Assembly: GCA_000182565.2 (NCBI GenBank)
Contig: KQ257465.1
Strand: one strand, 5' to 3'
Source: Spizellomyces punctatus DAOM BR117
Taxonomy: Eukaryota
DNA: 64,000 nt
The notes beneath the pieces are model-generated. The model saw only the letters and a list, made by a program, of their open reading frames with translations, had not been told where the DNA came from and made no database searches. Of the stretch, positions 25,525 through 46,694 are shown piece by piece (the first letter of the stretch is position 1; the number at the start of each line of letters is the position of its first letter). A program made the translations under genes and the position numbers.

Positions 25525-25993
25525 TGTGAAAGTGGAGGGCAGTTCGGTGAAGGTGCGCGGTTGGCATTAGGTTTCGTAATCAAATACGCGTCAAGGACCA
25601 GCATCAAGTGAACTCGAATAGTTGCTCATTCACGTTTGCCCTTCGTTCGTGATTTGTAGAACGAGTGGTTACATGCAGTGTTATGCGACTCGGTGGTGAT
25701 ATCGGACAGCGGGCCAAAGTGTACTCATGGTAGTAAGGGTTGGTACTTAATGTTCCATGGATTCAGCTGCTTACGTTGCGCGTGTTCTTAATTCCGATTT
25801 TGTTTTTGGATAGTTCGCCGTGTCAAGATGTTTTTGGCGCTCGTAAGCAGGTAGCGCGCGTACTTCCACGCTCCCCTTCAAGGTCTGCAAATGCAAACGG
25901 AAAGCAGCAACAACAGGTCCCGCCAATATTTTCGCATATCAGGCGCTTAAATAAAATACGCTGGGATCACTGGCATCTCGAAAGGCCACCGTC

Positions 25994-28258
25994 ATGAGGG
26001 CTATCATTTTCAACAGACCTTCCAGCCGATCTCGATGGAGCACAATTCTAATGCTCATGCTCTGCACCGCCTTCCTCTGCCTTCTTGATCGAACTCGTCG
26101 GAAAGCTGCAAGAGTGCTTCCAGAATGGGTGCACAAAGGAATATCGACGGAGCTCTCAGAATTCGTAAAGAAGGCCGATATCAACATCCAATGTTCTCAT
26201 CAGCTTGAACAGCCAGCCATTATTGAGCCGAATCGCAAAGTGCAATCGGATCTTCCCGAATTTGGACAATGGAGATCCAAAAATGCCCTTCGGTTAGGAA
26301 TGTCCCAGTGCGACGCTCATGTAACATATCAACAGAACCTCCTGTACGACTTCTACGGCTCTCGCCTTGCAAATATCACTCACGTCGGCGTCATTGGTCA
26401 GACGATTATTGCGAATCCAGGCGATGCTGCCTTGTATACTGCTACTGTATCTATGCTCCAAAAACTTCATATCCACATAGTTTACGCCTGCCCCTTCCGT
26501 GAATGCTCGGTGGACGAAATGCAGAAGGCCTTAGATGAAGCTCAGCCCGATAAGCGACGTCAAGGAATTGTATTTAACGGAGGTGGAAATATGAAATCTC
26601 AGTCTTTCATAGCGCAGGAGGTCAGGAATACCTTCGTTGAAGCGTTTCCGGAGGTTCAGATTACACACATGCCGCAAAGTGTATGGTTCGAGGATCCCAA
26701 GCATGATGAGTTGACGAGGGAGATATATAAGCGGCATAAGGATGTGGTTGTGACAGTCAGGGATCGGCTTTCCTTCGAACGCATCAAGCATTGGACGAAC
26801 GAAGGCATACCCGTCTACCTTCTTCCGGACACTGCACACATTCACGGTGTACGGACAGATTACATGGGTGACGTAAAGTACGATTTCCTCATTGTTCCAC
26901 GAAATGACAATGAGAACGGTGTCTCGCATCATCAAGTTGGAGCGTTTGAAACGTTGGTGAGAGGAGATGGCATGCAGGCCGCAAAAATGGTGATTGGGGA
27001 CTGGAATGATCAGCCCTTTGAAAAGATCATACCGTTGCAAGAAAAGGACCGAACGCAACAGGCTTGGCTGCGTTATAGATTTGGGATGGAGTGGTTGGCA
27101 CAGGGGGAGCTGATTGTGACGGATCGACTGCATGCAACTATCGTTGGATTGTCGCTTGGAAAGCAGGTTATCGTGATGGAACAAGGACCATACAAGAAGA
27201 TTCAAGGATTTTACGAGACATGGTACAAACCTGGATGCGACGATCTTGTCAGGTTTGCAGATGGAGTCGAAGAAGCTGTAAACTTGGCGATGGAGTGGTA
27301 CAAGAATGGAAAGTCATTTCCGGCATCAAAAGCACAATCAAACCGAGAGCTCCTTCCCATGGCCTCCAACACTCTCCCAGAGCCTAAACCCACGTCACCG
27401 AAATATGCAGTAACAACGGTGCTGACCGGAGACCGCTACCTGGCAGGGGCACTTGTCCTCGGGTTTTCCATCTCAAAGGTCAATTCTCTAAGAAACATAG
27501 ACCGCATTGCCCTCGTTCCCAAAGACGCTGCACTATCAGATACCCACGTCAAAATGTTGGAAAAAGTTGGATGGACACTTTTGTACGTTGATCGTGTTCC
27601 GATGCCCGCAAAGGTCAACTGGAAGTTCGAAGATATGTTGATCAAGTTGCAAACCTTCAAGATGACTCAGTACGAAATGATTGCCGCAATTGACTCTGAT
27701 GCTTTTGTTGTTGGAGATTTTTTGCCTGCGTTTGAACTATTGTCCGTGAGCGGGGCTCCTTTGGCAGCGACAATGGCAGCCACTAAACCAGTCGCACCAT
27801 TTTGGGACCTAATGGCAGGCCATTTCAACGCCGGGACAGTTTTCCTTCGCACCAATGCAACTGCATACGAGATTCTACATGCGCTGTCCCAAAACAAAGA
27901 GTACTATCCAACAGACTTGGCTGAACAGTCACTGTTGAACCGGTACTACGCCGGACAATGGCTTGGATTGCCTGCTACCTACAACCTCCTATTTGCATAT
28001 TCGACACGAAGAGAGTACTATCATGATATTCGTCCACAAACCAAGATAATACATTTTGCTGGCCATTATAAACCGTGGCTACCGTGTACCGACAAAAATA
28101 CGCACTCTTGTGGATATGATTTGCATCCGGATGTCATGCTTTGGAGACGATGGTTCAAGGAACTTGTGCGGGATATGGGTTGGAATGAGCGGGATTTTTT
28201 GGGGGATAGGCGTTCAGATGCTATACCTGATTTTGTTTGGGAGGATCTGATGCTGTAA
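25994..28258 (+). CDS. Type II membrane fusion: polysaccharide pyruvyltransferase (Pvg1/EpsI-like) plus GT8 glycosyltransferase, intronless, 754 aa
   Basis: N-terminal TM anchor; pyruvyltransferase motifs NPGDAAL, GGGN, PQSV, VRD..SF, PDTA, VTDRLHATI; GT8 motifs YLAGALVLG, KLQTF..IDSD (DxD), FNAG, AEQSLLN, YN, IIHFAG.YKPW. Confidence 0.82.
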   Translation: MRAIIFNRPSSRSRWSTILMLMLCTAFLCLLDRTRRKAARVLPEWVHKGISTELSEFVKKADINIQCSHQLEQPAIIEPNRKVQSDLPEFGQWRSKNALRLGMSQCDAHVTYQQNLLYDFYGSRLANITHVGVIGQTIIANPGDAALYTATVSMLQKLHIHIVYACPFRECSVDEMQKALDEAQPDKRRQGIVFNGGGNMKSQSFIAQEVRNTFVEAFPEVQITHMPQSVWFEDPKHDELTREIYKRHKDVVVTVRDRLSFERIKHWTNEGIPVYLLPDTAHIHGVRTDYMGDVKYDFLIVPRNDNENGVSHHQVGAFETLVRGDGMQAAKMVIGDWNDQPFEKIIPLQEKDRTQQAWLRYRFGMEWLAQGELIVTDRLHATIVGLSLGKQVIVMEQGPYKKIQGFYETWYKPGCDDLVRFADGVEEAVNLAMEWYKNGKSFPASKAQSNRELLPMASNTLPEPKPTSPKYAVTTVLTGDRYLAGALVLGFSISKVNSLRNIDRIALVPKDAALSDTHVKMLEKVGWTLLYVDRVPMPAKVNWKFEDMLIKLQTFKMTQYEMIAAIDSDAFVVGDFLPAFELLSVSGAPLAATMAATKPVAPFWDLMAGHFNAGTVFLRTNATAYEILHALSQNKEYYPTDLAEQSLLNRYYAGQWLGLPATYNLLFAYSTRREYYHDIRPQTKIIHFAGHYKPWLPCTDKNTHSCGYDLHPDVMLWRRWFKELVRDMGWNERDFLGDRRSDAIPDFVWEDLML

Positions 28259-35981: not shown

Positions 35982-36186
35982 TTCTACTGTTTGATGGGTT
36001 GTATGATGGAGACCAAATGAACAATATTCGTGATGACCGGCCAACCTTCACTGCCAAACTGCCCGGTGTATCACACTCGGCCAAAAATGGCTAAATGACA
36101 AATCTATAATTTTTTTTAACAAACTGTTGAGATTCTCCACTTGAGTCGCGTTTTCATTTTCTTTTCAAACACTACATACGTTCAAA

Positions 36187-38226
36187 ATGAGCAAAGAAGA
36201 CCAGCTCGTTGGGCAAGCAGCTACATCCAACCCTCCAACAAAGAAAGAGAAGAAAAAGAAGGCGAAGGCGAAGACTGACGCCATGGACGTGGACACTCCC
36301 TTGAAGGAACGCAAAAGCAAGAAGCGGCCAAGAGAGGAAGACGCCGCGGACGAGGTGAAGGCAGACAAGAAGGATAAGAAAATGAAAAAGAGGAAGGAGA
36401 GAAAATGTGACGATGATGATGAGGAGGCAGTGAAGATCGGCGTGGATGCGAACATCGATAACGACTCCGGGGCCAAACGCGACAAGAAGAAAAAGAAAGA
36501 CGACCAGAAAGAGCAAAAAAGGGAAGAGAAGAAGAGAAGGGCGCACTCTGTGAAAGAAATTGAAGAAAAGGCTTCGGACGTTGAGGAAGAGGAGCAAGTT
36601 GAGCACAAAATAACAAAAGGCAACAACAAGAGGGATAAGAAAGAAGGGCCCAGTGATGAATGGTCATATAAACAGGACAAAGCCCTCAGCGACCTGCCTC
36701 AAGCTACCATTGACGACTTCTATGCAAAGCACACCGTTCAAATATCGGACAATGCTACGGCGCTTCGTCCCATACTCGAGTTCTCTCAAGCAGGATTCCC
36801 GGCTGACCTGGCTAGGGACCTATCGAGGTTTCCCAAACCTACGGTTATCCAATCCTCTTGTTGGCCGTTTATCCTCTCAGGTGAGGATCTAATCGGTGTT
36901 GCAGCAACAGGGAGCGGTAAGACTTTGGCATTCGGTATCCCAGCCCTTATCCACATTCGCAACCGAGTAGCGAGACAAAACATCCAACCCCGCAAACCCC
37001 AGGTGCTGGTTTTATCCCCAACTCGCGAACTCGCCATGCAGATTCAGGAGCAAGTAGAAAAATTCTCTGGATCATTGGCAAAGAGCGTTGTCATCTACGG
37101 CGGTGTTCCCAAGTTTGAGCAAAAGAAAGCATTGAAGAGTGGTGCTGTCAACGTGATTGTTGCAACCCCCGGACGCTTGATTGACCTACTGGAAGATGAG
37201 GATAGCTGTTGCGATTTGAGCGATGTCTCCTTTCTTGTTTTGGATGAAGCAGACAGAATGTTGGATCTCGGGTTCGAGGAGGCCATTAAAAAGATTGTGG
37301 GACAATTGAGGAAGGAGGGGCGGCAAACGGTCATGTTCAGGTTTGTAGCGTGCATGTTATTTGAGAGATGCATGCTGATGGAAATTTTGCAACAGTGCTA
37401 CCTGGCCACCCGCTATCCAGAAGATTGCGGAGCAATACCTCAAGTCTCCGGTGAACATTACCGTCGGATCTCAGGATCTGTCCGCTAACTCGAGCATCGA
37501 ACAGCGGGTCGAAGTTGTGGATCCTCACAATAAGGAATCTCGCCTATTAGAACTACTAAAAAAATACCACAAATCGCGGACAAACCGTGTTCTGATTTTT
37601 GCATTATACAAAAAGGAGGCCGCCAGATTGGAGGGATTCGTTCGCAGAAATGGGTTCAAAGTTGCCGCAATCCATGGGGACTTGGGACAACAGCAACGAA
37701 CTAAAGCGATCGAAGATTTCAAGAAGGGGACGTGCCCTTTACTGATTGCTACTGATGTGGCTGTGAGTGACTTGTCATTGTGTCCAGTTTGTTTTCGTAT
37801 TCCTCATACTGTTGCCCTACGAATTAGGCCCGTGGAATTGACATTCCTAACGTCGAATATGTGATTAATGTTACCTTCCCCCTCACCGTTGAAGATTACT
37901 GTCACCGCATCGGGCGAACCGGTCGAGCAGGACAGAAGGGCATATCGCACACGTTGTTTACCGTTCACGATAAATCCCATTCAGGGGCTCTAATCAATGT
38001 GTTGAAGGGAGCTGGACAAACGGTGCCGGCGGACCTACTCAAGTTCGGGACGACCGGTAAGGAGAAGCAGTTTCAACTTTGTCATAGTGGTAGTTTTCTG
38101 ACGATCTATCTTTTCATTTATACAGTAAAAAAGAAAGTTGACCCCAACTACGGAGCGTTCGTCAAAGATGTGGATATGAATAAAAAAGGGAAGAAGATTA
38201 CTTTTAATGATTCCGATTCAGAGTAG
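36187..38226 (+). CDS. DBP3: DEAD-box RNA helicase Dbp3 with Lys-rich N-terminus
   Basis: [68 protein letters not shown]. Confidence 0.93.
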
Positions 38227-38963
38227 AAACGACGTAGGTGGTTGGTGGATAAGGTGGATAAGGCTGTGTTCTGTATTTGTTTATTGGTGTTCTGGGAGGG
38301 CGTCTTTGGTACATAGACTACTATTATTTATTGAGGCAATAGCGAGACTTTCAGAGATGGAAGTTAAGAGTCACGGAATTGAACCTGAGGTTATCCAAAC
38401 CGTTGTGGGCAGCGTGGAACCCAGAATTCCTCTACCCAACAAGCACTTCGAGACGATGCCTACACGTTCATGAACCCAAAGCGTAACGCAAATTATGGGA
38501 CATTGAATCCAATGATTATCTTCTGGCTCTGGTTACCTCTCGTTTGTCCCATCGTATGTCCCTGTTAGACGCCGTTCTTGTCGGCATTTCTCGATCCGGT
38601 GCCAGAAGACGAAGACACCACGCAAATGCCAGAACTTATTCACTGCCGCTGCACGAGCACTTTATGCGGGTGGCTATTCCTCCACGGAAGTCTGTGGACG
38701 AAAACCTTAGAATATGGACACAAGCACACCGCACTGCTGCCAAACGCAGACAACGCGGGGAATAAGGGGGACACAAGATTTATACTCCGCTTTGGCTTTT
38801 CCTATCACTACGCTGTGGAATAATCTGTCTTTGTTAAATCCTTGCTGATGTAGTGCATCACTGCCGTCGCTGATCACCGTTAGTTTACAATTTGAGCTGT
38901 CGCTGAGAACCGTTCGAAGTGGGACTACTGTGGCGGGACCCACCACCGAAGGATGCCATTGAT

Positions 38964-41900
38964 CTAGGATGAATCGGCACCTTCCAGAGCGTGGGGATAA
39001 TACGTTTCCTCTGGCCCTCTAGCCTCGGTCGATATACTTGTGAAACCGAGGTCTACATGGCCAGGTACATATTCCATATCGTTTGACACAATTACGCACA
39101 CATTACATGCAACATTTCCCTATTTACAAGAATGGTATGGTAGTAACCAACGATGAGCATATCAATCCTCATTATTCATGTATTCCTGCTAACCGAACTG
39201 GCTGGAGATGAGGTAGTTCTACATCCAAAATCTTCAGTTCCTCCGTAACGTACAAATGTAAATAAGGGATTTCTTGCTGGGTACTCACCGGCCAGCGTTT
39301 CCAAGCACGCGAAGGTCACTCTCGTGAAATCCAGATTCAGCGCCGACAGCTGAACCATTCCTAGTTGCCACAACGGATCAGCGCAGACTTTTCATGTAAT
39401 GCATACTTGCTTTTATACCTTTCAACGAATAAATGCCATCATCGTCCACAGCTGTCCTCGCCACGTTCAGGACCCTTATTGTTCTGTTAAACTCACACTC
39501 TGACAATATCCTTAAAGCTTCAGATGTGATCTCCGTTTGCATCAAAGAGAGGTGGTGGATATATCTGAGCGCTAAGGTGGATAGGTAGAAATGTATCAGT
39601 TCTGTACTATAATACGCAGCGGTAATCGGTGACGAAAGAGTAGTGGATGACGAGTCTTACGTTTCAGATGGCAAATCCCGGCATCTCCGACGTGTGTGCG
39701 GTCTAGATGGAGTGTAGTGAGACTTCTGAGCTGTTCGAACTGGCAGAGGGATGCATCAGTTATCCCGGTCCCCTCCAGAGAAAGACTAACTAATCTTGAA
39801 TCGAGAATCAAGATGAGAGAAGGGAATAATGCGGATGAAAACGATCAAATCGTACGTAGTAGCCAGACGGGATATGTGCTCTGCAGCTGCATCCGTCAGA
39901 TTCACAAAGTTGGAGAGATTCAAGCTGTGGAGTGGGAATTCTGAAAACGATGTAACCAACCAGGTGCATAAGCATTTTCAGGTCACAGAGGTTCATGTCA
40001 TGGAGCTTACCGCAGAACAGCGCTAGGACGTCATCTGTAAGCTGATGAGATGGGAAGGTAATGGCGCGCAGATTCTGGAGTGCTGAAGTACATACACTCG
40101 TAAGTGCTGCTCTTTTCCAATTAACGGGCTGTCCTCTTACCCCGTGCAATACCGCTCAGACCCACAACTGAGATTCCCTCGCATCCTGCCGTGTCCAGTT
40201 CTTCCAGAGACTCGAATGCACAGATGATGTTCATTACTTCCAGATCCGTGATACCAGACAGGCGAACATCCAAGTATCTCAACTCCTTGAATGTACCAGT
40301 TGGGGGTGACGCTACTGGGCTTTTGAAAGGCATGTTTGTAAGATGTAAAGTGCATAGTTGGGAAAAGGAGGAAAGCGTCCTGAAAATGTCCGCAGTAGCT
40401 AATTTGGTGCAGTAGGATAGGTTCAGACTACGAAGACTGTTAGCCAAGTCTGTACCGAGAAGCGTGCTTAAAAAGCAGCTGGTAATCTTCGTCTTGGCAA
40501 CAGACAGACTCGTCAGAGATGTTAAGGCTAAAAGAAAAAAAGACGTCAGAGCATGTATAGGAGGAGTGTGGTAATCAAGGAAGTACCAGGTAGTGCGTGG
40601 GCAACCCGGTCAGATATCCTGCACTCGCTTAAATCCAACTCTTCAAGGCTCTTGAGTGCTACGCGATGATGCATATTGCTGTTATTCCCCGGGAGTGTTC
40701 AAAATGAGAACTTCGTCAACATACGCTTTAGAGCCCAAATTCCAGCATCAGTCACAACCTCGCATCCACTCAGGTTTAAGTTGGTCAGCATAGGCCAGAG
40801 ACGCTCGCCAATGACACGAAGCAGAGAATCCGTCGCAAGCGTATAATGCGACAGATCTAAGGTGTTGATAGGGCATACGCTCAATTTGGTCAGCATGGAA
40901 GCGTTCAGTTCATTTTGGTGCAGAAGACGCGTGCAGAGAGTTGACCCGATGGTTCCGGGGAGAAAGCGCAAGGAACGAAGATAAGCTGTTGGAGTGGCAG
41001 GAGTTGCCAGCAGACTTTCGATGCGACGCATGCAGATTTCTTTGAGGGAGACTGGAGTGTGGAACCCAGCTCGTCTTTTTAAACCTGCAACCGGCCACGA
41101 AAGGGGGTTGCGTGTGGGACGATGAGGTTGAGCAGTATCTAAAGGGACGGGATCCGTTGTCAAGAGATGACCCTCCCCTCCCCAATCATGATGTACTTCG
41201 TCAATCACGTTGATGTCTTCTTCATTCTCATTGTCGTTGTCATCCAAAGTGTTTTCATCCCGCTCCCCTCCGTCAGTCACCTCCTCATGCACGCGGATTT
41301 CCTCCAAGGTCATGTTCATGGGTTGAGCACCAGCAAGTTGCGCTGGTCCCGACGGAGAAGATGGTTGGGAATTGCACCTCATCACATTGAGCGAAGCGTT
41401 TGGTACCAAGCCTGGACCACAAACAGGACATAAACATCAGGGTCCACACCTATGCAGTATCATCTCTGTGGCATACCAGCATCTTGAAGGGACAATGTCT
41501 TACACTCGTCCTCGACAAATAGTCGTCTTGGAAATGGCTATTATTAATGGAGCCAGGCATTAACTGAGACTCAGAATTCTACCACAAGAAGCACAATTGC
41601 AATCTCACCTGCAGAAGAGTGAAATGATCTCCACAGTCAACTCGGTCTTTACCCTGTGCTGAATCGCGAACGGATGCAAACAGGGTCACAACGTACGTTG
41701 AGGGTGAGAAGGCCCGCCTCAGGACCGCGCCCGATGGGAGACGAATCTACACACATATTTGTTATTGATATCCAATGCATAAGGAAACCTATGATAGGAA
41801 GGATCATATTCACCTGAATGGCCGCATCACTATTCACTAACGGCTTTGGTGTCCCAGGACTCTGTCCAATACTATTACAAGGTTCTACATGGCGTTTCCG

Positions 41901-42729
41901 ATCTTTCTGTGTTTCACGGTCTTCTTTAATTTGCCGAAGGATTTGAATCTTTGACTGTATATATGACCTGTCATTAGTTGAGCTTCTCGGCAGAGACATG
42001 TATCATATTGACCTCCTGTTGACTCTTTTTGAACCGCTTCGCTTCATTCAACGCCCGAGCCGTCGCTATATCAGCACATGTTTTGCGGGTTGTTTTATGC
42101 CGACTGGTGATAGAGGGACGCTCCTTACAGCATAACCTTGTATGAGATCTCCGCTACGGATGGGACTTGCTGCACAAGAGGTTACCTCTAAATGCGCCGC
42201 TGATACCAATGAAATCGGAGTGGGATTGTCAGGCTCCTGCACATTCGTGCTTGTGCATTGCGTTTCCACCGAGTTGATTGAAGATGTCGATGGCTCAGCT
42301 GACCGGAAGGGATTGGTGATTGCTAGTGGCTCCGGCCTTGAGGGTTGCAGCGGTGGTAAAGTGACTAGCCCAATATCAGATGTCGCAGAGCTATCTTGCG
42401 TCTTAGCGATGATCCTTAGTTTGGAAAATAAGCGATCGAAGAAGTATAAACAAACGCGGCGGATGCCGCCAACAGTTCAGAAACGCGACTGACACATTCT
42501 GCTAGTCGAACGGCTATATGCGCGCCGCCTCACATACTAGTATTCTTATCCCTTGTTGCCACCATCGACTAGTAGATCAGGTAAACTCGTTTACCGACGG
42601 CACGTACCAACTTACGGCATCCTCGACAGTGCGCACGTCGCCGTCTGCCAAAGCTTTTCTGCTGATAAAATAGTCAAAGCCCATATCCATGAGAGATGCA
42701 AGAAGGCCATCATTGCTCTCCTCCGACAT
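38964..42729 (-). CDS. Multi-exon UBA - coiled-coil - UBX - BC-box-like - LRR (RNI-like) protein; 3' end approximate
   Basis: Exon 1 LLASLMDMGFDYFISRKALADGDVRTVEDAVSW|II (UBA); AAIQ|IRLPSGAVLRRAF..FTLLQ|PFPRRLF..LSLQDA|GLVPNASLNV (UBX); PVSLKEICMRRI; LRRs LTNLNLSGCEVVTDAGI, LRSLNLSYC, LTTLHLDRTHVGDAGI. Confidence 0.75.
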
Positions 42730-43510: not shown

Positions 43511-45615
43511 ATGCTCACCGTAGACCCCACCTGTACAAATGCCATTGATGATATTGAAGAGCTAGGGATTGTTTCTTCGGAGTTACCAGCACAATCACGG
43601 GCGTCCTACCGTACTGTTCCAGTCAAAACATTCCGAAAGCGATTCTCAGGTCAAGAAGGTGAAGCCGAAAATCACACCAAACGCAGTCCAGACCATTTCC
43701 TACCTGGGCGGGCTACGGTGTTTGTAAAGACGTGGGGATGTGGTGTGTAATCTTGTGACTTGTTGGTGTCCCGTTTCTGAACGCTAAAGAGCGATGTCGG
43801 CTATTGCAGGGCACAACAACTCGGACGGTGAATATATGGCAGGATTGTTGGCGGCGGACGGTTATGAAGTGGTATTGGAAGACTCCAAGCGTGATTCGGC
43901 TGACGTTTGGCTGCTGAACTCCTGCACCGTGAAAGGTCCCTCCGAGCAAACTTTCGTAAACGAGATCCGGAAAGGGAAAGACCAGGGGAAAAAGGTGGTG
44001 GTAGCAGGTTGCGTTCCTCAAGCTAGTCCCAAGGGTACCGAGTGGCAGGGATTAAGCGTGATTGGAGTTCAGCAAATTGACTCTGTGGTCGACGTGGTTG
44101 AGGAAACGCTTAAAGGGAACACTGTTAAATTACTGAAGGAAGCGAAAGAGACAAGCGAAACTGGAAAAAAGAGAAAAACGGGGGGTGCAAAGTTAGATCT
44201 GCCGAAAGTTAGGCGCAATCCCTACATTGAGATTATTCCAATTAACACGGGGTGAGTCTTGCTACCCATTGATTTGCTCCCAAGAAAGGTACTGACAAGG
44301 ATTGAATGCAAGGTGTCTGAATCAATGCACGTACTGCAAAACGAAGCATGCACGAGGGGATCTCGGAAGTTACCATCCTTCAGAAATTATTTCGCGCGTG
44401 CAATCCGTTCTTGATGAAGGCGTCATGGAGATCTGGTTGACTTCTGAGGATACAGGGGCGTATGGTCGGGATATTGGTGTCTCCATTGTGGATCTACTGT
44501 GGGGCATTGTGAAAGTCATGGAAGCACACGATAACAAGGATGCTATGCTTCGCGTCGGGATGACAAATCCACCTTACATTTTGGAACATCTGGAAGAAAT
44601 CGCCCAGGTGCTGGTTCATCCCAGGGTGTACTCCTTTTTACATGTTCCTGTTCAAGCGGCGAGTGATAAAGTCCTGGAAGACATGAGGAGAATGTACACG
44701 AAAGCAGATTTTAAAAAGGTTGTGGACACTTTGAGAAATCGAGTACAAGATATAACCATTGCCACTGATGTCATTTGTGGGTTCCCGACGGAAACTCCGG
44801 AGGATTTTGAAGAGACTTTGGAATTGGTGAGAGAGTACAAATTCCCCGTGGTACATATATCACAGGTAAGGCTACCTAATTAACGGTGGAAACGTGTGTG
44901 GAGTTCCGTTAATTTTTTTGATCAACAGTTCTACCCTCGACCCGGTACTCCGGCCGCCCGTCTTCCTCGTCTCGCTACCGAAGAAGTCAAACGTCGCAGC
45001 CGCGAACTCACCCGGCTCTTCGAATCTTATACCACGTACTCACATCTTATGGACACGATACAACGTGTCCTCATCACCGAACGAAGCGGGGATGGAAAGC
45101 ATTATGTTGGGCACACCAAATCGTATCAACAGGTGCTGGTTCCCTTGCAAGAGGGCTTGATGGGACGGGTAGTATCAGTGCACGTGACACAAGTTGGAAA
45201 GTGGTTTTTGAGTGGCGAAGTTATTGACGGGAATGACCCACTCGGCGCCGGTGAGAGGAAAGGGACCCCCAAGTTGGTGAGAAAGGGAAGAGAAATGGTC
45301 AGGATGGGTGGCGAGGATCAGGATGGCAATGATGGGACAGAGCTAAGTCTGGGTAGTGGAGAGGGTCTTAAGAAACGGGCAGGGGGAAAGTCTGATCCCC
45401 CCCGTACGCCTGAGACAAAGGCTGTTCAAGAGGTCGAACGCCGGAAACCGAGCCCACCGATCTTCATAGTAATTGCGTATCTTCTGGTCATGTATGTCGT
45501 AGTTTATGTACTGATGGGTTATGAGGGAATGCGGTGGGGTTTTCGAGTAGCACTATGTTTCGTGATTGCATCGATTGGGTGGGATTTTGCCCAAAAGGTT
45601 ACCGCATCACAGTAG
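43511..45615 (+). CDS. CDKAL1: tRNA ms2t6A methylthiotransferase (CDKAL1/e-MtaB), radical SAM + TRAM, C-terminal membrane anchor
   Basis: IDDIEEL N-terminus; [51 protein letters not shown] (CxxxCxxC); [35 protein letters not shown]; hydrophobic tail. Confidence 0.93.
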
Positions 45616-45841: not shown

Positions 45842-46694
45842 TCAAACAGAAGCGTCCGACATGTGCTCACCAAACTTCATTTCCCACATTTCTAGTACGA
45901 TGCGAATGTATTGCGCATCGGGGGAGTACAGACCCTCAAATTGCTCTAAGAAGGCTACAGATTTCCGGAGGGCTCCCAATCCTTCAGCTATCGGAATGAT
46001 AGAATTGTCCAGAACGCAGCTGGTACTTTGGTAAATGTCATCCTGCGGCTGGATTGAAGATGGGATGCAATTTCGAAAGGAACCCGATACGGGTGAGCAT
46101 GTGCCTGGTGAACCTGAATCGAAAAGATCGACCGGGCCGGCCATGGTAGCGCATGGCATTGTTGTGATAACGGATGGTGCCGGAGCGAGCGCTGAGACGG
46201 AGGGAACCACGTGCCGCGCTTTCCATCCTTGCAGCCATAAATCTCCACACTTGAAGTCATGGCTCTCTGTGATCGTCATCGATTGAGCAATCTCTAAGGC
46301 CTTTTTTCTTATGATTTCGTCGCTCAGTTCATCCTGTTGCAGCTGTGCCGCACGGTACCACTCCACCAGGGCCTGTTCTAGTTGAGGATGTCTTGCCATA
46401 CGTTCTCGCATGCGGTCCAGGCACTTCCCTTGCTCTATCAGGCGAACCCATCTTGATTTATCCCTTAACGCTCTTGTAATGGTGACCCTGGAGCAATTAA
46501 ATCTAGACGTAATGGCGAGCGCGTCAACCGAGTACTTGCACAATTCATGTGCTGGTTAACTCATCGTACCTTGAAGCCAAATACGTGTGAGTTAGCTCTG
46601 GATCTTCCTCCACTGCTCTGCAAATATCGTATCGTTGCTGAACCGTTAAGCGAGCCCGAGGTCTTTTTCCTTCCTTCTCTTTGGCTGGGGACAT
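45842..46694 (-). CDS. CENP-B/Tc5(pogo)-type HTH DNA-binding protein lacking a DDE catalytic domain
   Basis: RARLTVQQRYDIC..THTYLAS|RFNCSRVTITRAL (psq-like HTH); HPQLEQALVEWY...IIRKKALEIA..FKCGDLWLQGWKARH (HTH_Tnp_Tc5); one intron. Confidence 0.78.

What the first reader, a model, noticed from the sequence alone, without database searches (positions are those of the whole stretch)
38964..42729. Single protein fusing a Cdc48/p97 adaptor (UBA-UBX) to a BC-box/LRR cullin-type substrate receptor
Seen after manual splicing: a UBA domain (MGF motif, AVSWII), a coiled coil (ILRQIKEDRE) and a UBX domain with the IRLP and FPR motifs. The last UBX strand (GLVPNASLNV) is in the same uninterrupted ORF (40699-41409) as an acidic linker, PVSLKEICMRRI..LRFLPGTIGSTL and the first LRRs, so the UBX-LRR fusion does not depend on a splice guess. 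Known: UBA-UBX proteins recruit Cdc48 to ubiquitylated clients; SL-x-x-x-C BC-box plus LP-x-x cullin-box followed by LRRs typifies ZYG11/PRAME-like Elongin-BC/Cul2 receptors. Inference: a hard-wired recognise-ubiquitylate-extract module. The ORF track shows none of the UBA or UBX core.
Basis: partly seen in the sequence, partly recalled or inferred. Interest (0 to 1): 0.75.

Follow-up and report, generated by a model that had tools for sequence, protein, structure and literature searches.

The report
Cdc48 adaptor fused to ligase receptor
One chytrid gene joins the parts that dock onto the protein-extracting machine Cdc48/p97 to a leucine-rich-repeat module that looks like the target-choosing subunit of an Elongin C-cullin ubiquitin ligase, and the same unstudied fusion is conserved in early fungi, a jellyfish and apparently fish.

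Summary
Window 42729-39172 (minus strand) is the annotated 15-exon gene SPPG_07569 of Spizellomyces punctatus (836 aa; 100% hit). Full-length Pfam gives UBA_7 (7-50) and UBX (196-276, E 4e-14), followed by about 15 LRRs. The last UBX strand, the linker, the box and LRR1-2 lie in one exon.

It is not a local oddity. All 56 profile hits that I scanned carry UBX+LRR. Named members come from chytrids, Glomeromycota, Mucorales and a jellyfish. Atlas clusters are labelled Mucoromycota and Chordata (si:ch73-173p19.1).

The box fits the published BC-box and Cul2-box consensus. A profile of 50 box segments finds only yeast Rad7's Elc1-binding SOCS box in the PDB (E 2.7e-4). L390 and C394 align with Rad7 L168 and C172. 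The box model's best structural match among 48,161 chains is the ZYG11B N-terminus bound to Elongin B/C (Z 6.5). No F-box signal appeared.

Binding to Elongin C and to Cdc48 is inferred, not tested. I found no paper on the family. It is a new variant of known kinds.

The parts
39172..42729 (-). Coding region of SPPG_07569 (836 aa, 15 exons), ATG 42729 to stop TAA 39174-39172
   Evidence: 100% identical public protein P0001. It maps back to the window as 15 collinear blocks. Exon ends are known to within 2 bases where a codon is split.
42388..42711 (-). UBA domain, residues 7-50, split by intron 1 (42415-42607); MGF loop at residues 16-18
   Evidence: Pfam UBA_7 E 3.9e-7, 30.3 bits against a cut-off of 27. 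Three helices at 5-49 with pLDDT about 80. G17 is present in 54 of 62 relatives; the other 8 have gaps there.
41814..42065 (-). Long helix or coiled coil, about residues 125-175 (ILRQIKEDRE), preceding the UBX
   Evidence: AF2 helix 125-175. D166 is conserved in at least 90% of 62 relatives. The family profile aligns helix plus UBX to FAF1 (11ta_M, profile 111-264, E 4.6e-15).
41386..41831 (-). UBX domain, residues 196-276, spread over four exons; FPR loop (F249-P250-R251) at 41526-41534
   Evidence: Pfam UBX E 4.1e-14. Family profile against the PDB: UBXD2/UBXN4 UBX domains at E 8.6e-19 and 1.4e-18. Conservation in 62 relatives: F249 in 56, P250 in 60, R251 in 49, R203 in 52.
41161..41184 (-). 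SHP-box-like motif WGGEGHLL, residues 344-351, in the disordered linker after the UBX
   Evidence: At the aligned site, 23 of 62 relatives have [FWY]xGxGxxL, 18 have [FWY]GxGxxL and 21 have looser forms. Column counts: G348 in 56, L351 in 58, R350 in 40 of 62. Either form occurs anywhere in 344 of 12400 shuffled proteins. It matches the Ufd1 SHP features F228, G230, G232, N233 and L235 (PMC5042407 passages).
41020..41049 (-). BC-box-like helix SLKEICMRRI, residues 389-398
   Evidence: Fits (S,T,P)LXXX(C,S,A)XXXphi (PMC4878042 passages). L390 is present in 60 and C394 in 43 of 62 relatives. The full consensus is met in 39 of 62. It aligns to Rad7 SLQSLCITKI in 5zb2_A. AF2 helix, pLDDT above 93.
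40936..40962 (-). Cul2-box-like stretch LPGTIGSTL, residues 418-426
   Evidence: Fits phiPXXphiXXXphi. Met in 24 of 62 relatives; position 419 is P in 24 and S in 22.
39175..40875 (-). Leucine-rich-repeat domain, residues about 447-836, 15 beta strands, FBXL-type (cysteine-containing) repeats, ending in LQPVRLAGIHE
   Evidence: Pfam LRR_4, LRR_6 and LRR_8. AF2 pLDDT about 90. VIA-align: FBXL2 Z 31.6, RipG4 29.2, FBXL17 26.2, Rad7 24.6.
39103..39171 (-). 3' untranslated region and poly(A) site near 39103
   Evidence: 8 reads of RNA run X8 carry loose T runs before 39103.

Best explanation
SPPG_07569 is a Cdc48/p97 cofactor that is also the substrate receptor of an Elongin C-cullin-RING ubiquitin ligase.

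Proposed mechanism:
1. The C-terminal LRR solenoid binds a client, which is unknown.
2. The BC/SOCS-type box just before the LRRs seats the protein on Elongin C. Through Elongin C it joins a cullin-Rbx core, which ubiquitylates the client.
3. The N-terminal UBA holds the growing ubiquitin chain.
4. [quoted passage not shown]

Shown here: the domain order in one polypeptide, its conservation, the p97-binding signature residues, and homology of the box to a solved Elongin C-binding box.

Inferred: every physical interaction, the identity of the cullin, and the client.
For: Fusion:
- One gene, and one exon for the UBX-to-LRR junction.
- Conserved as a fusion in 6 named relatives.
- Conserved in all 56 scanned profile hits.

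Cdc48/p97-adaptor half:
- UBX E 4e-14.
- Family profile against solved UBX domains, E about 1e-18.
- FPR loop conserved: F in 56, P in 60, R in 49 of 62.
- SHP-like motif: G348 in 56 and L351 in 58 of 62. Strict forms in 41 of 62 at the aligned site, against 344 of 12400 shuffles anywhere.

Box:
- S. punctatus meets both the BC-box and the Cul2-box consensus.
- The 50-segment profile hits only Rad7 of the Rad7-Elc1 crystal: E 2.7e-4, 24.3 bits, collinear over positions 1-70, next hit E 0.048.
- Two disjoint halves of that set gave the same Rad7 alignment, at E 0.0014 and E 0.067.
- L390 and C394 align with Rad7 L168 and C172. The L168A/C172A mutant fails to ubiquitinate Rad4 (PMC4551923 passages).
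- The AF2 model of the box plus LRR1-2 has pLDDT 90.4. Its best match among 48,161 chains is ZYG11B in the Elongin B/C complex: Z 6.5, rmsd 3.2, 106 residues aligned, model 21-132 to chain 13-129. By the range offset, L390 falls on ZYG11B L18, the residue that inserts into Elongin C (PMC13201589 passages).
- The LRR domain's best structural relatives are cullin-ligase receptors: FBXL2, RipG4, FBXL17 and Rad7.
Against: - No interaction was tested. Elongin C, Skp1 and Cdc48 sequences of this organism could not be obtained.
- The structural match to ZYG11B is modest. Z 6.5 is below the tool's own caution line of 8, and the next rows score 5.5.
- Foldseek found nothing at E <= 1e-3 for the box model.
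- The second, independent box profile alone gave Rad7 only E 0.067, at rank 2.
- The full BC consensus holds in 39 of 62 relatives and the Cul2 box in 24 of 62. Both hold together in only 14 of 62.
- 19 of 62 relatives lack the Cys at position 394.
- No ZYG11B, VHL or SOCS chain was hit by sequence at E <= 10.
- The three-helix box could be only an N-terminal cap of the LRR solenoid.
- RNA evidence covers the 3' end only.
Confidence: 0.5

Rival explanations
1. It is a Cdc48/p97 substrate adaptor only. The LRR domain picks a client or a cellular site for the segregase. The conserved box is just the helical N-terminal cap of the LRR solenoid and recruits no ligase.
For: - The p97-binding half is the best-supported part.
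- The BC consensus is incomplete in 23 of 62 relatives and the Cul2-box proline is missing in 38 of 62.
- Structural matches of the box model are all below Z 8.
- Ribonuclease inhibitors and internalins match the LRR domain nearly as well as ligase receptors do, at Z 23-26.
Against: - A plain cap would not be expected to keep [ST]-L-x3-C-x3-aliphatic at the counts seen: L in 60, C in 43, aliphatic in 53 of 62.
- A plain cap would not be expected to find only the Elc1-binding box of Rad7 in 177,635 PDB sequences, at E 2.7e-4.
- The top structural neighbour is an Elongin C-bound box, aligned in register.
Confidence: 0.3
2. The box is a degenerate F-box, and the protein is an SCF (Skp1-Cul1) receptor fused to UBA-UBX.
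For: - FBXL2 is the best match of the LRR domain by sequence profile (E 1.7e-37) and by structure (Z 31.6).
- UniRef names two fragmentary Gigaspora relatives 'F-box domain-containing protein'.
- F-box and BC-box helices bind homologous adaptors. This last point is recalled.
Against: - No Pfam F-box or F-box-like hit in P0001-P0003 at E <= 0.1.
- None in the 56 relatives at E <= 1e-3.
- None in 20 box segments at E <= 10.
- No F-box chain among PDB hits of three box profiles at E <= 10, although many are solved.
- The F-box LP and Trp signatures (recalled) are absent from the consensus.
Confidence: 0.07
3. The C-terminal half is the orthologue of yeast Rad7. The protein would then be the global-genome excision-repair ligase receptor, working with a Rad16-like partner. 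Here it carries its own Cdc48 recruiter to remove Rad4/XPC from chromatin. This is a special case of the best explanation.
For: - Rad7 is the only solved protein hit by the box profile.
- Rad7 has the same order: disordered N-terminus, SOCS box, then LRR (5zb2).
- The LRR-only Cladochytrium relative P0003 (584 aa) has a Rad7-like layout.
Against: - Rad7 is not among the 14 PDB hits of P0001 at E <= 0.01.
- Rad7 is not among the best 60 hits of the family profile. FBXL2 leads there.
- Rad7 ranks 22nd by Z for the LRR domain.
Confidence: 0.1
4. Gene-model artefact: two neighbouring genes (UBA-UBX and LRR) were wrongly merged.
For: RNA reads do not cover the middle of the gene well enough to show junctions.
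Against: - The junction lies inside one stop-free exon.
- The same order is found in all 62 aligned relatives.
- A tree splits those relatives into a clade holding all five named fungal sequences and a clade holding the jellyfish.
Confidence: 0.02

Closest known systems
Yeast Rad7 (SOCS-box LRR subunit of the Rad7-Rad16-Elc1-Cul3 ligase; PDB 5zb2)
   Same: A BC/SOCS-type helix sits directly before an LRR solenoid. It is the only PDB sequence hit of the box profile (E 2.7e-4). L390 and C394 align with the functionally tested L168 and C172.
   Different: Rad7 has no UBA, UBX or SHP motif. Its LRR domain is not the closest to this one. Orthology is untested.
ZYG11B / ZER1 (VHL-box LRR-ARM receptors of CRL2)
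   Same: N-terminal BC box, a loop, a Cullin box, then LRRs. It is the best structural neighbour of the box model (9bid_A Z 6.5; 9lk2_A Z 5.4).
   Different: This protein has no ARM domain, whereas ZYG11B binds its degron through ARM. There is no sequence-level hit. LRR_Zer-1 scores below the Pfam cut-off. The box here is internal, following 388 residues of adaptor.
p47/Shp1 and Ufd1-Npl4 (bipartite UBX or UBX-like plus SHP binding to p97)
   Same: UBA, SHP-type motif and UBX in one adaptor. Two N-domain-binding modules (PMC5042407 and PMC10641518 passages).
   Different: No SEP domain. The SHP-like motif lies after the UBX, not before it. The first aromatic residue of the 11-residue Ufd1 SHP is not conserved here.
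UBXN1/SAKS1, FAF1 and UBXN4 (UBA-helix-UBX or helix-UBX adaptors)
   Same: The order UBA, long helix, UBX (recalled for UBXN1). The closest solved UBX domains are UBXD2/UBXN4 and FAF1.
   Different: None of them carries an LRR domain or a BC box. Orthology of the N-terminal half was not tested.
UBXN7/Ubx5, and CRL2-LRR1 working with p97
   Same: The same logic in trans: a p97 adaptor docks on cullin ligases (recalled), and CRL2-Lrr1 ubiquitylates CMG, which p97 then disassembles (PMC8682755 abstract).
   Different: In those systems adaptor and receptor are separate proteins. Here both sit on one chain.
FBXL2 / FBXL17 (F-box LRR receptors of SCF)
   Same: The same LRR subtype. The best LRR matches are FBXL2 (E 1.7e-37; Z 31.6) and FBXL17 (Z 26.2).
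   Different: No F-box was detectable.

Membership tests
UBX-domain Cdc48/p97 cofactors | UBX fold recognised by the family model | tested here: met
   PF00789 E 4.1e-14, 53 bits against a cut-off of 21, residues 196-276. The family profile hits solved UBX domains at E about 1e-18.
UBX-domain Cdc48/p97 cofactors | Phe-Pro-Arg loop between strands 3 and 4 (consensus as quoted in PMC10641518) | tested here: met
   F249-P250-R251 in the window protein. In 62 relatives, F is present in 56, P in 60 and R in 49.
UBX-domain Cdc48/p97 cofactors | Physical binding to the Cdc48/p97 N domain | not testable with these tools
   No Cdc48 sequence of this organism could be fetched. No complex job was sent.
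UBA domain | Family model above its cut-off; three-helix bundle with MGF loop | tested here: met
   UBA_7 scores 30.3 bits against 27. Helices at 5-15, 20-29 and 35-49. A UBA-type Pfam hit at E <= 1e-3 is found in 27 of 56 relatives.
SHP box (binding site 1) p97-binding motif | Two invariant glycines two residues apart, a preceding aromatic and a closing Leu (Ufd1 F228, G230, G232, N233, L235; PMC5042407) | tested here: met
   W344-G-G346-E-G348-H-L-L351. G348 is present in 56 and L351 in 58 of 62 relatives. Canonical spacing is found in only 23 of 62. The first aromatic (Ufd1 F225) is not conserved.
BC-box / VHL-box / SOCS-box receptors of Elongin C-cullin ligases | BC box (S,T,P)LXXX(C,S,A)XXXphi (PMC4878042) | tested here: met
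   SLKEICMRRI at 389-398. The full consensus is met in 39 of 62 relatives.
BC-box / VHL-box / SOCS-box receptors of Elongin C-cullin ligases | Cullin box after the BC box (Cul2: phiPXXphiXXXphi) | tested here: inconclusive
   LPGTIGSTL at 418-426 fits the consensus, but only 24 of 62 relatives do. The type of cullin remains open.
BC-box / VHL-box / SOCS-box receptors of Elongin C-cullin ligases | Homology or structural likeness to a box solved in complex with Elongin C | tested here: met
   Rad7 (5zb2_A) at E 2.7e-4, 0.0014 and 0.067 with three profiles. ZYG11B-EloB/C is the top of 48,161 chains at Z 6.5, which is a modest score.
BC-box / VHL-box / SOCS-box receptors of Elongin C-cullin ligases | Binding to Elongin C | not testable with these tools
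   No Elongin C sequence was available. No genome is held for this window.
F-box proteins (SCF receptors) | F-box recognised by PF00646 or PF12937 | tested here: not met
   No hit in P0001-P0003 at E <= 0.1, in 56 relatives at E <= 1e-3, or in 20 box segments at E <= 10.
ZYG11/ZER1 family | LRR_Zer-1 above its cut-off and a C-terminal ARM domain | tested here: not met
   PF25013 scores 19.9 bits against 27. The protein ends after the LRRs, with no ARM hit.
Rad7 orthologues | Closest overall relative among characterised LRR proteins; partner Rad16 | tested here: inconclusive
   The box matches Rad7 best. The LRR domain matches FBXL2 better. Reciprocal search and Rad16 were not tested.

The most novel reading that the evidence does not exclude
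This is an ancient opisthokont machine in which one polypeptide is both the ligase receptor and the segregase adaptor. It is the ancestral, Cdc48-coupled form of the Rad7-type repair ligase receptor. It would mark damaged-chromatin proteins such as Rad4/XPC and hand them directly to Cdc48. Budding yeast would have kept only the box-LRR half, and mammals would have lost the gene.
Probability: 0.1. Interest if true: 0.85.

Novelty: new variant of a known kind. Interest (0 to 1): 0.6.

Why it matters
Ubiquitin ligases and the Cdc48/p97 segregase are known to act one after the other on the same clients. They are linked in trans by adaptors such as UBXN7.

A conserved protein that carries a ligase-receptor box and three p97- or ubiquitin-binding modules on one chain would be a natural 'Rosetta stone'. 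It argues that marking and extraction can be hard-wired together.

The family appears to be present in fish, a jellyfish and early-diverging fungi. That gives tractable systems for finding its client: zebrafish si:ch73-173p19.1, and chytrids. It also gives a way to ask why the standard model organisms do without it. Its absence from yeast and mammals is recalled, not tested here.

Two full-text searches found no paper on it: 'ch73-173p19' and UBX-LRR phrases.

Tried and rejected
- Own genome: none is held. Elongin C, Skp1, cullins and Cdc48 of this organism could therefore not be looked up, and no complex prediction was sent.
The 56 unnamed representatives therefore have no taxonomy. The range rests on six named proteins, a few more chytrid names and Atlas cluster labels.
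- The third word-based homologue search, with the 62-row alignment, was swamped by generic LRR proteins. It added only Chytriomyces, Podochytrium and Quaeritorhiza relatives.
- The look-up of sequencing runs listed no RNA holder.
  - Runs X2-X4 proved to be genomic contigs collinear across introns, so they say nothing on splicing.
  - X8 is 3'-biased and left the UBA-UBX exon junctions unconfirmed.
- Foldseek and VIA-align on the full model gave only generic LRR matches.
- Foldseek on the box model gave nothing at E <= 1e-3.
- The box profiles found no ZYG11B, VHL, SOCS or F-box chain at E <= 10.
- Pfam cannot classify the box.
- I tested a VIM reading of the Ala/Arg-rich helix between the SHP-like motif and the box and dropped it. 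The strict Rx5AAx2R pattern (recalled consensus) occurs in 3 of 62 relatives, against 59 of 12400 shuffles.
- The maximum-likelihood tree did not finish. FastTree was used instead.
- Earlier scan notes held nothing.
Full report
**What is there**

The window is eukaryotic, with short introns. The region holds a minus-strand gene. A search with the large exon (40702-41409) returned a 100% identical public protein: SPPG_07569 of Spizellomyces punctatus DAOM BR117, 836 aa, named 'UBX domain-containing protein' by UniRef. An 86% identical protein comes from Spizellomyces sp. 'palustris'.

The public protein maps back onto the window as 15 collinear exon blocks, from ATG 42729 to the last codon at 39175. 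The stop codon TAA is at 39174-39172.

The key point holds. The last UBX strand, the acidic linker, the box and LRR1-2 are all in one stop-free frame, 40699-41436. The UBX-LRR junction therefore needs no splice.

**RNA evidence**

One RNA run of the same species label (X8) is strongly 3'-biased.
- Depth is 20-50 at 38988-39563 and at most 1.4 further upstream.
- Two GT..AG introns are confirmed: 39219-39288 (15 reads) and 39360-39417 (11 reads).
- Poly(A) starts near 39103 (8 reads).

Runs X2-X4 are genomic contigs and say nothing on splicing.

The annotated exon 2/3 junction has an in-frame alternative that I read by eye. No read decides between them, and it affects only a non-conserved linker.

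**Domains**

On the full protein, Pfam gives:
- UBA_7, residues 7-50, 30.3 bits against a cut-off of 27.
- UBX, residues 196-276, E 4.1e-14.
- Several LRR families from residue 475 on.
- No F-box.
- LRR_Zer-1 at only 19.9 bits against a cut-off of 27.

An AlphaFold2 model built from six sequences shows:
- a three-helix UBA;
- a long helix at 125-175;
- a weakly predicted UBX;
- a disordered linker at 270-387;
- four helices at 390-444;
- 15 LRR strands, with pLDDT about 90.

**It is a family, not an oddity**

A search with residues 385-836 found fused relatives with a precomputed UBX hit in:
- Fimicolochytrium jonesii;
- Racocetra persica (Glomeromycota);
- Gongronella butleri (Mucorales);
- the jellyfish Rhopilema esculentum, where the protein is named 'internalin I-like'.

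It also found LRR-only or fragmentary models in Cladochytrium, Entophlyctis and Gigaspora.

A profile of the six fused proteins was run against 1.84 billion representatives. Among the best 150 it gave many single-stretch, full-length matches of 740-990 aa.

I picked 56 of those 150: those of at most 990 aa with at most three matched stretches. The other 94 were mostly long multi-stretch LRR proteins and a few fragments, and I did not scan them.
- All 56 of the 56 carry both UBX and LRR Pfam hits.
- 27 of the 56 also have a UBA-type hit at E <= 1e-3.
- None has an F-box hit.

The ESM Atlas places both the window protein and the jellyfish protein next to three UBX+LRR clusters (these labels are leads, not alignments):
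- one labelled Mucoromycota, with 84 members;
- two labelled Chordata, named after the zebrafish locus si:ch73-173p19.1, with 71 and 68 members.

A FastTree of the 62 sequences splits them with 100% local support. One side has 27 rows and holds all five named fungal sequences. The other has 35 rows and holds the jellyfish.

**The Cdc48/p97-binding half**

In the 62-row alignment the UBX signature residues are kept: R203 in 52, F249 in 56, P250 in 60 and R251 in 49.

The family profile hits solved UBX domains of UBXD2/UBXN4 at E 8.6e-19 and 1.4e-18. It also hits FAF1's helix plus UBX at E 4.6e-15.

In S. punctatus it reads WGGEGHLL (344-351).
- Column counts in 62 sequences: aromatic in 58, G346 in 47, G348 in 56, R350 in 40, L351 in 58.
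- At the aligned site, 23 have [FWY]xGxGxxL, 18 have [FWY]GxGxxL, and 21 have looser forms, most of which keep G-x-R-L.
- Either strict form occurs anywhere in only 344 of 12400 shuffled proteins.

This matches the SHP box as described for Ufd1. There, two strictly conserved glycines sit two residues apart. They are flanked by F228, N233 and L235, which contact the p97 N domain. UBX or UBX-like plus SHP gives bipartite binding (PMC5042407 passages; PMC10641518 passages).

The first aromatic of the 11-residue Ufd1 box is not conserved here.

**The box**

S. punctatus reads SLKEICMRRI (389-398) and LPGTIGSTL (418-426). Both fit the published consensus: BC box (S,T,P)LXXX(C,S,A)XXXphi and Cul2 box phiPXXphiXXXphi (PMC4878042 passages).

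Across the 62 sequences:
- position 389 is S or T in 47;
- L390 is present in 60;
- C394 is present in 43;
- position 398 is aliphatic in 53;
- the full BC consensus is met in 39, the Cul2 box in 24, and both in 14.

- 20 segments picked by eye gave only one hit below E 0.01. It was yeast Rad7 in the Rad7-Elc1 crystal (5zb2_A), at E 0.0014, collinear over the whole profile.
- That first set favoured members with the Cys, so I repeated the search with 30 other segments. Fourteen of these lack the Cys. Rad7 came back with the same alignment, but only at E 0.067 and rank 2, behind a partial match.
- All 50 segments together gave Rad7 first, at E 2.7e-4 and 24.3 bits. The next hit was at E 0.048.
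- Twelve of the 62 segments were not used: one near-duplicate, several that were cut or misaligned at this site, and the rest simply not typed.
- No F-box, VHL, SOCS or ZYG11B chain appeared at E <= 10 in any of the three searches.

In the alignment, L390 and C394 fall on Rad7 L168 and C172. These are the two residues changed in the Rad7 SOCS-box mutant, which fails to ubiquitinate Rad4 (PMC4551923 passages; the original paper was not read).

**Structure of the box**

I made a second model of residues 365-496, taken from the window's own exon, with a 62-row alignment. It has pLDDT 90.4.
- Foldseek found nothing at E <= 1e-3. The best rows were FBXL2 at 0.025 and Rad7 at 0.16.
- The Foldseek-independent search of 48,161 chains put human ZYG11B in its Elongin B/C complex first: 9bid_A, Z 6.5, rmsd 3.2, 106 residues aligned, model 21-132 to chain 13-129.
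- A second ZYG11B-EloB-EloC entry came fourth, at Z 5.4.
- COI1, factor B, FBXL5 and FBXL2 followed at 5.1-5.5.

The score is modest and lies below the tool's caution line. Even so, the match is collinear from the first helix.

By the range offset, L390 and C394 fall on ZYG11B L18 and C22. L18 is the residue that inserts into the Elongin C pocket (PMC13201589 passages). Residue-level pairs were not printed, so this register is an inference.

The whole LRR domain resembles cullin-ligase receptors best: FBXL2 Z 31.6, RipG4 29.2, FBXL17 26.2 and Rad7 24.6. Ribonuclease inhibitors and internalins are close behind.

**Reading**

The best-supported explanation is a Cdc48/p97 cofactor (UBA, UBX, SHP-like motif) that is also an Elongin C-type ligase receptor (BC/SOCS box plus LRR).
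- I put the adaptor half at about 0.85.
- I put Elongin C binding at about 0.55-0.6.
- I put the joint reading at 0.5.

The main rival is an adaptor whose box is only an LRR cap (0.3). An F-box reading (0.07) failed its membership test. A Rad7-orthologue reading (0.1) rests on the box alone. A merged gene model (0.02) is contradicted by the single exon and by the conservation.

**What stays open**
- All binding, the identity of the cullin, and the client.
No complex prediction was made.

**Novelty**

The gene is annotated, and its Pfam domains are visible in public tables. I found no paper on the family.
- 0 papers hold 'ch73-173p19'.
- 0 papers hold any of five UBX-LRR phrases.
- A listing of 15 of the 34 papers that hold at least 3 of the 4 terms UBX domain, leucine-rich repeat, UBA and BC-box showed none on this architecture (titles and abstract starts only).

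The SHP-like motif and the Rad7/ZYG11B-type box appear to be new observations. I classify the finding as a new variant of known kinds.

Noticed in passing
relatives, e.g. P0118, P0143, P0160 between the SHP-like motif and the box; window 41068-41091 (residues 375-382) is the degenerate counterpart: Most relatives have a conserved Ala/Arg-rich helix (for example LAAEAAxxR) between the SHP-like motif and the BC-like box. It recalls the C-terminal half of the p97-binding VIM motif. The strict Rx5AAx2R pattern (recalled consensus) is met in only 3 of 62 relatives, against 59 of 12400 shuffles.
   Followed up: partly
window 42013-42186: The annotated exon 2/3 junction (donor GTAACC at 42185, exon 3 from 42123) has an in-frame alternative (donor GTTATG at 42136, acceptor before 42065). 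The alternative swaps about 19 residues of the non-conserved linker. No RNA read decides between them.
   Followed up: partly
window 38700-39419, plus strand: RNA run X8 shows low coverage (depth 1-3.6) in the opposite read direction over the 3' end of the gene and beyond. This may be read-through or the 3' UTR of the convergent DEAD-box helicase gene at 36145-38226.
   Followed up: no
window 25955-28255, plus strand: A single 767-aa open frame combines a polysaccharide pyruvyl transferase domain (E 3e-19) with a family 8 glycosyltransferase domain (E 5.7e-14).
   Followed up: no
window 45845-46555, minus strand: An open frame has a Tc5 transposase DNA-binding (CENP-B-like) domain, E 2.6e-13. 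It lies next to the CDKAL1-like radical-SAM gene at 43788-45612.
   Followed up: no
P0116 and P0181 (unnamed relatives): Two relatives show two separate UBX stretches (PF00789, 84 and 98 bits), so they carry a duplicated UBX domain before the LRR half.
   Followed up: no
P0008, P0009, P0016 (Gigaspora): The Gigaspora gene models of this family look fragmentary. P0016 starts in the last UBX strands, and P0008 and P0009 lack the UBX. UniRef nevertheless names P0008 and P0009 'F-box domain-containing protein', although no Pfam F-box is recorded for them.
   Followed up: partly
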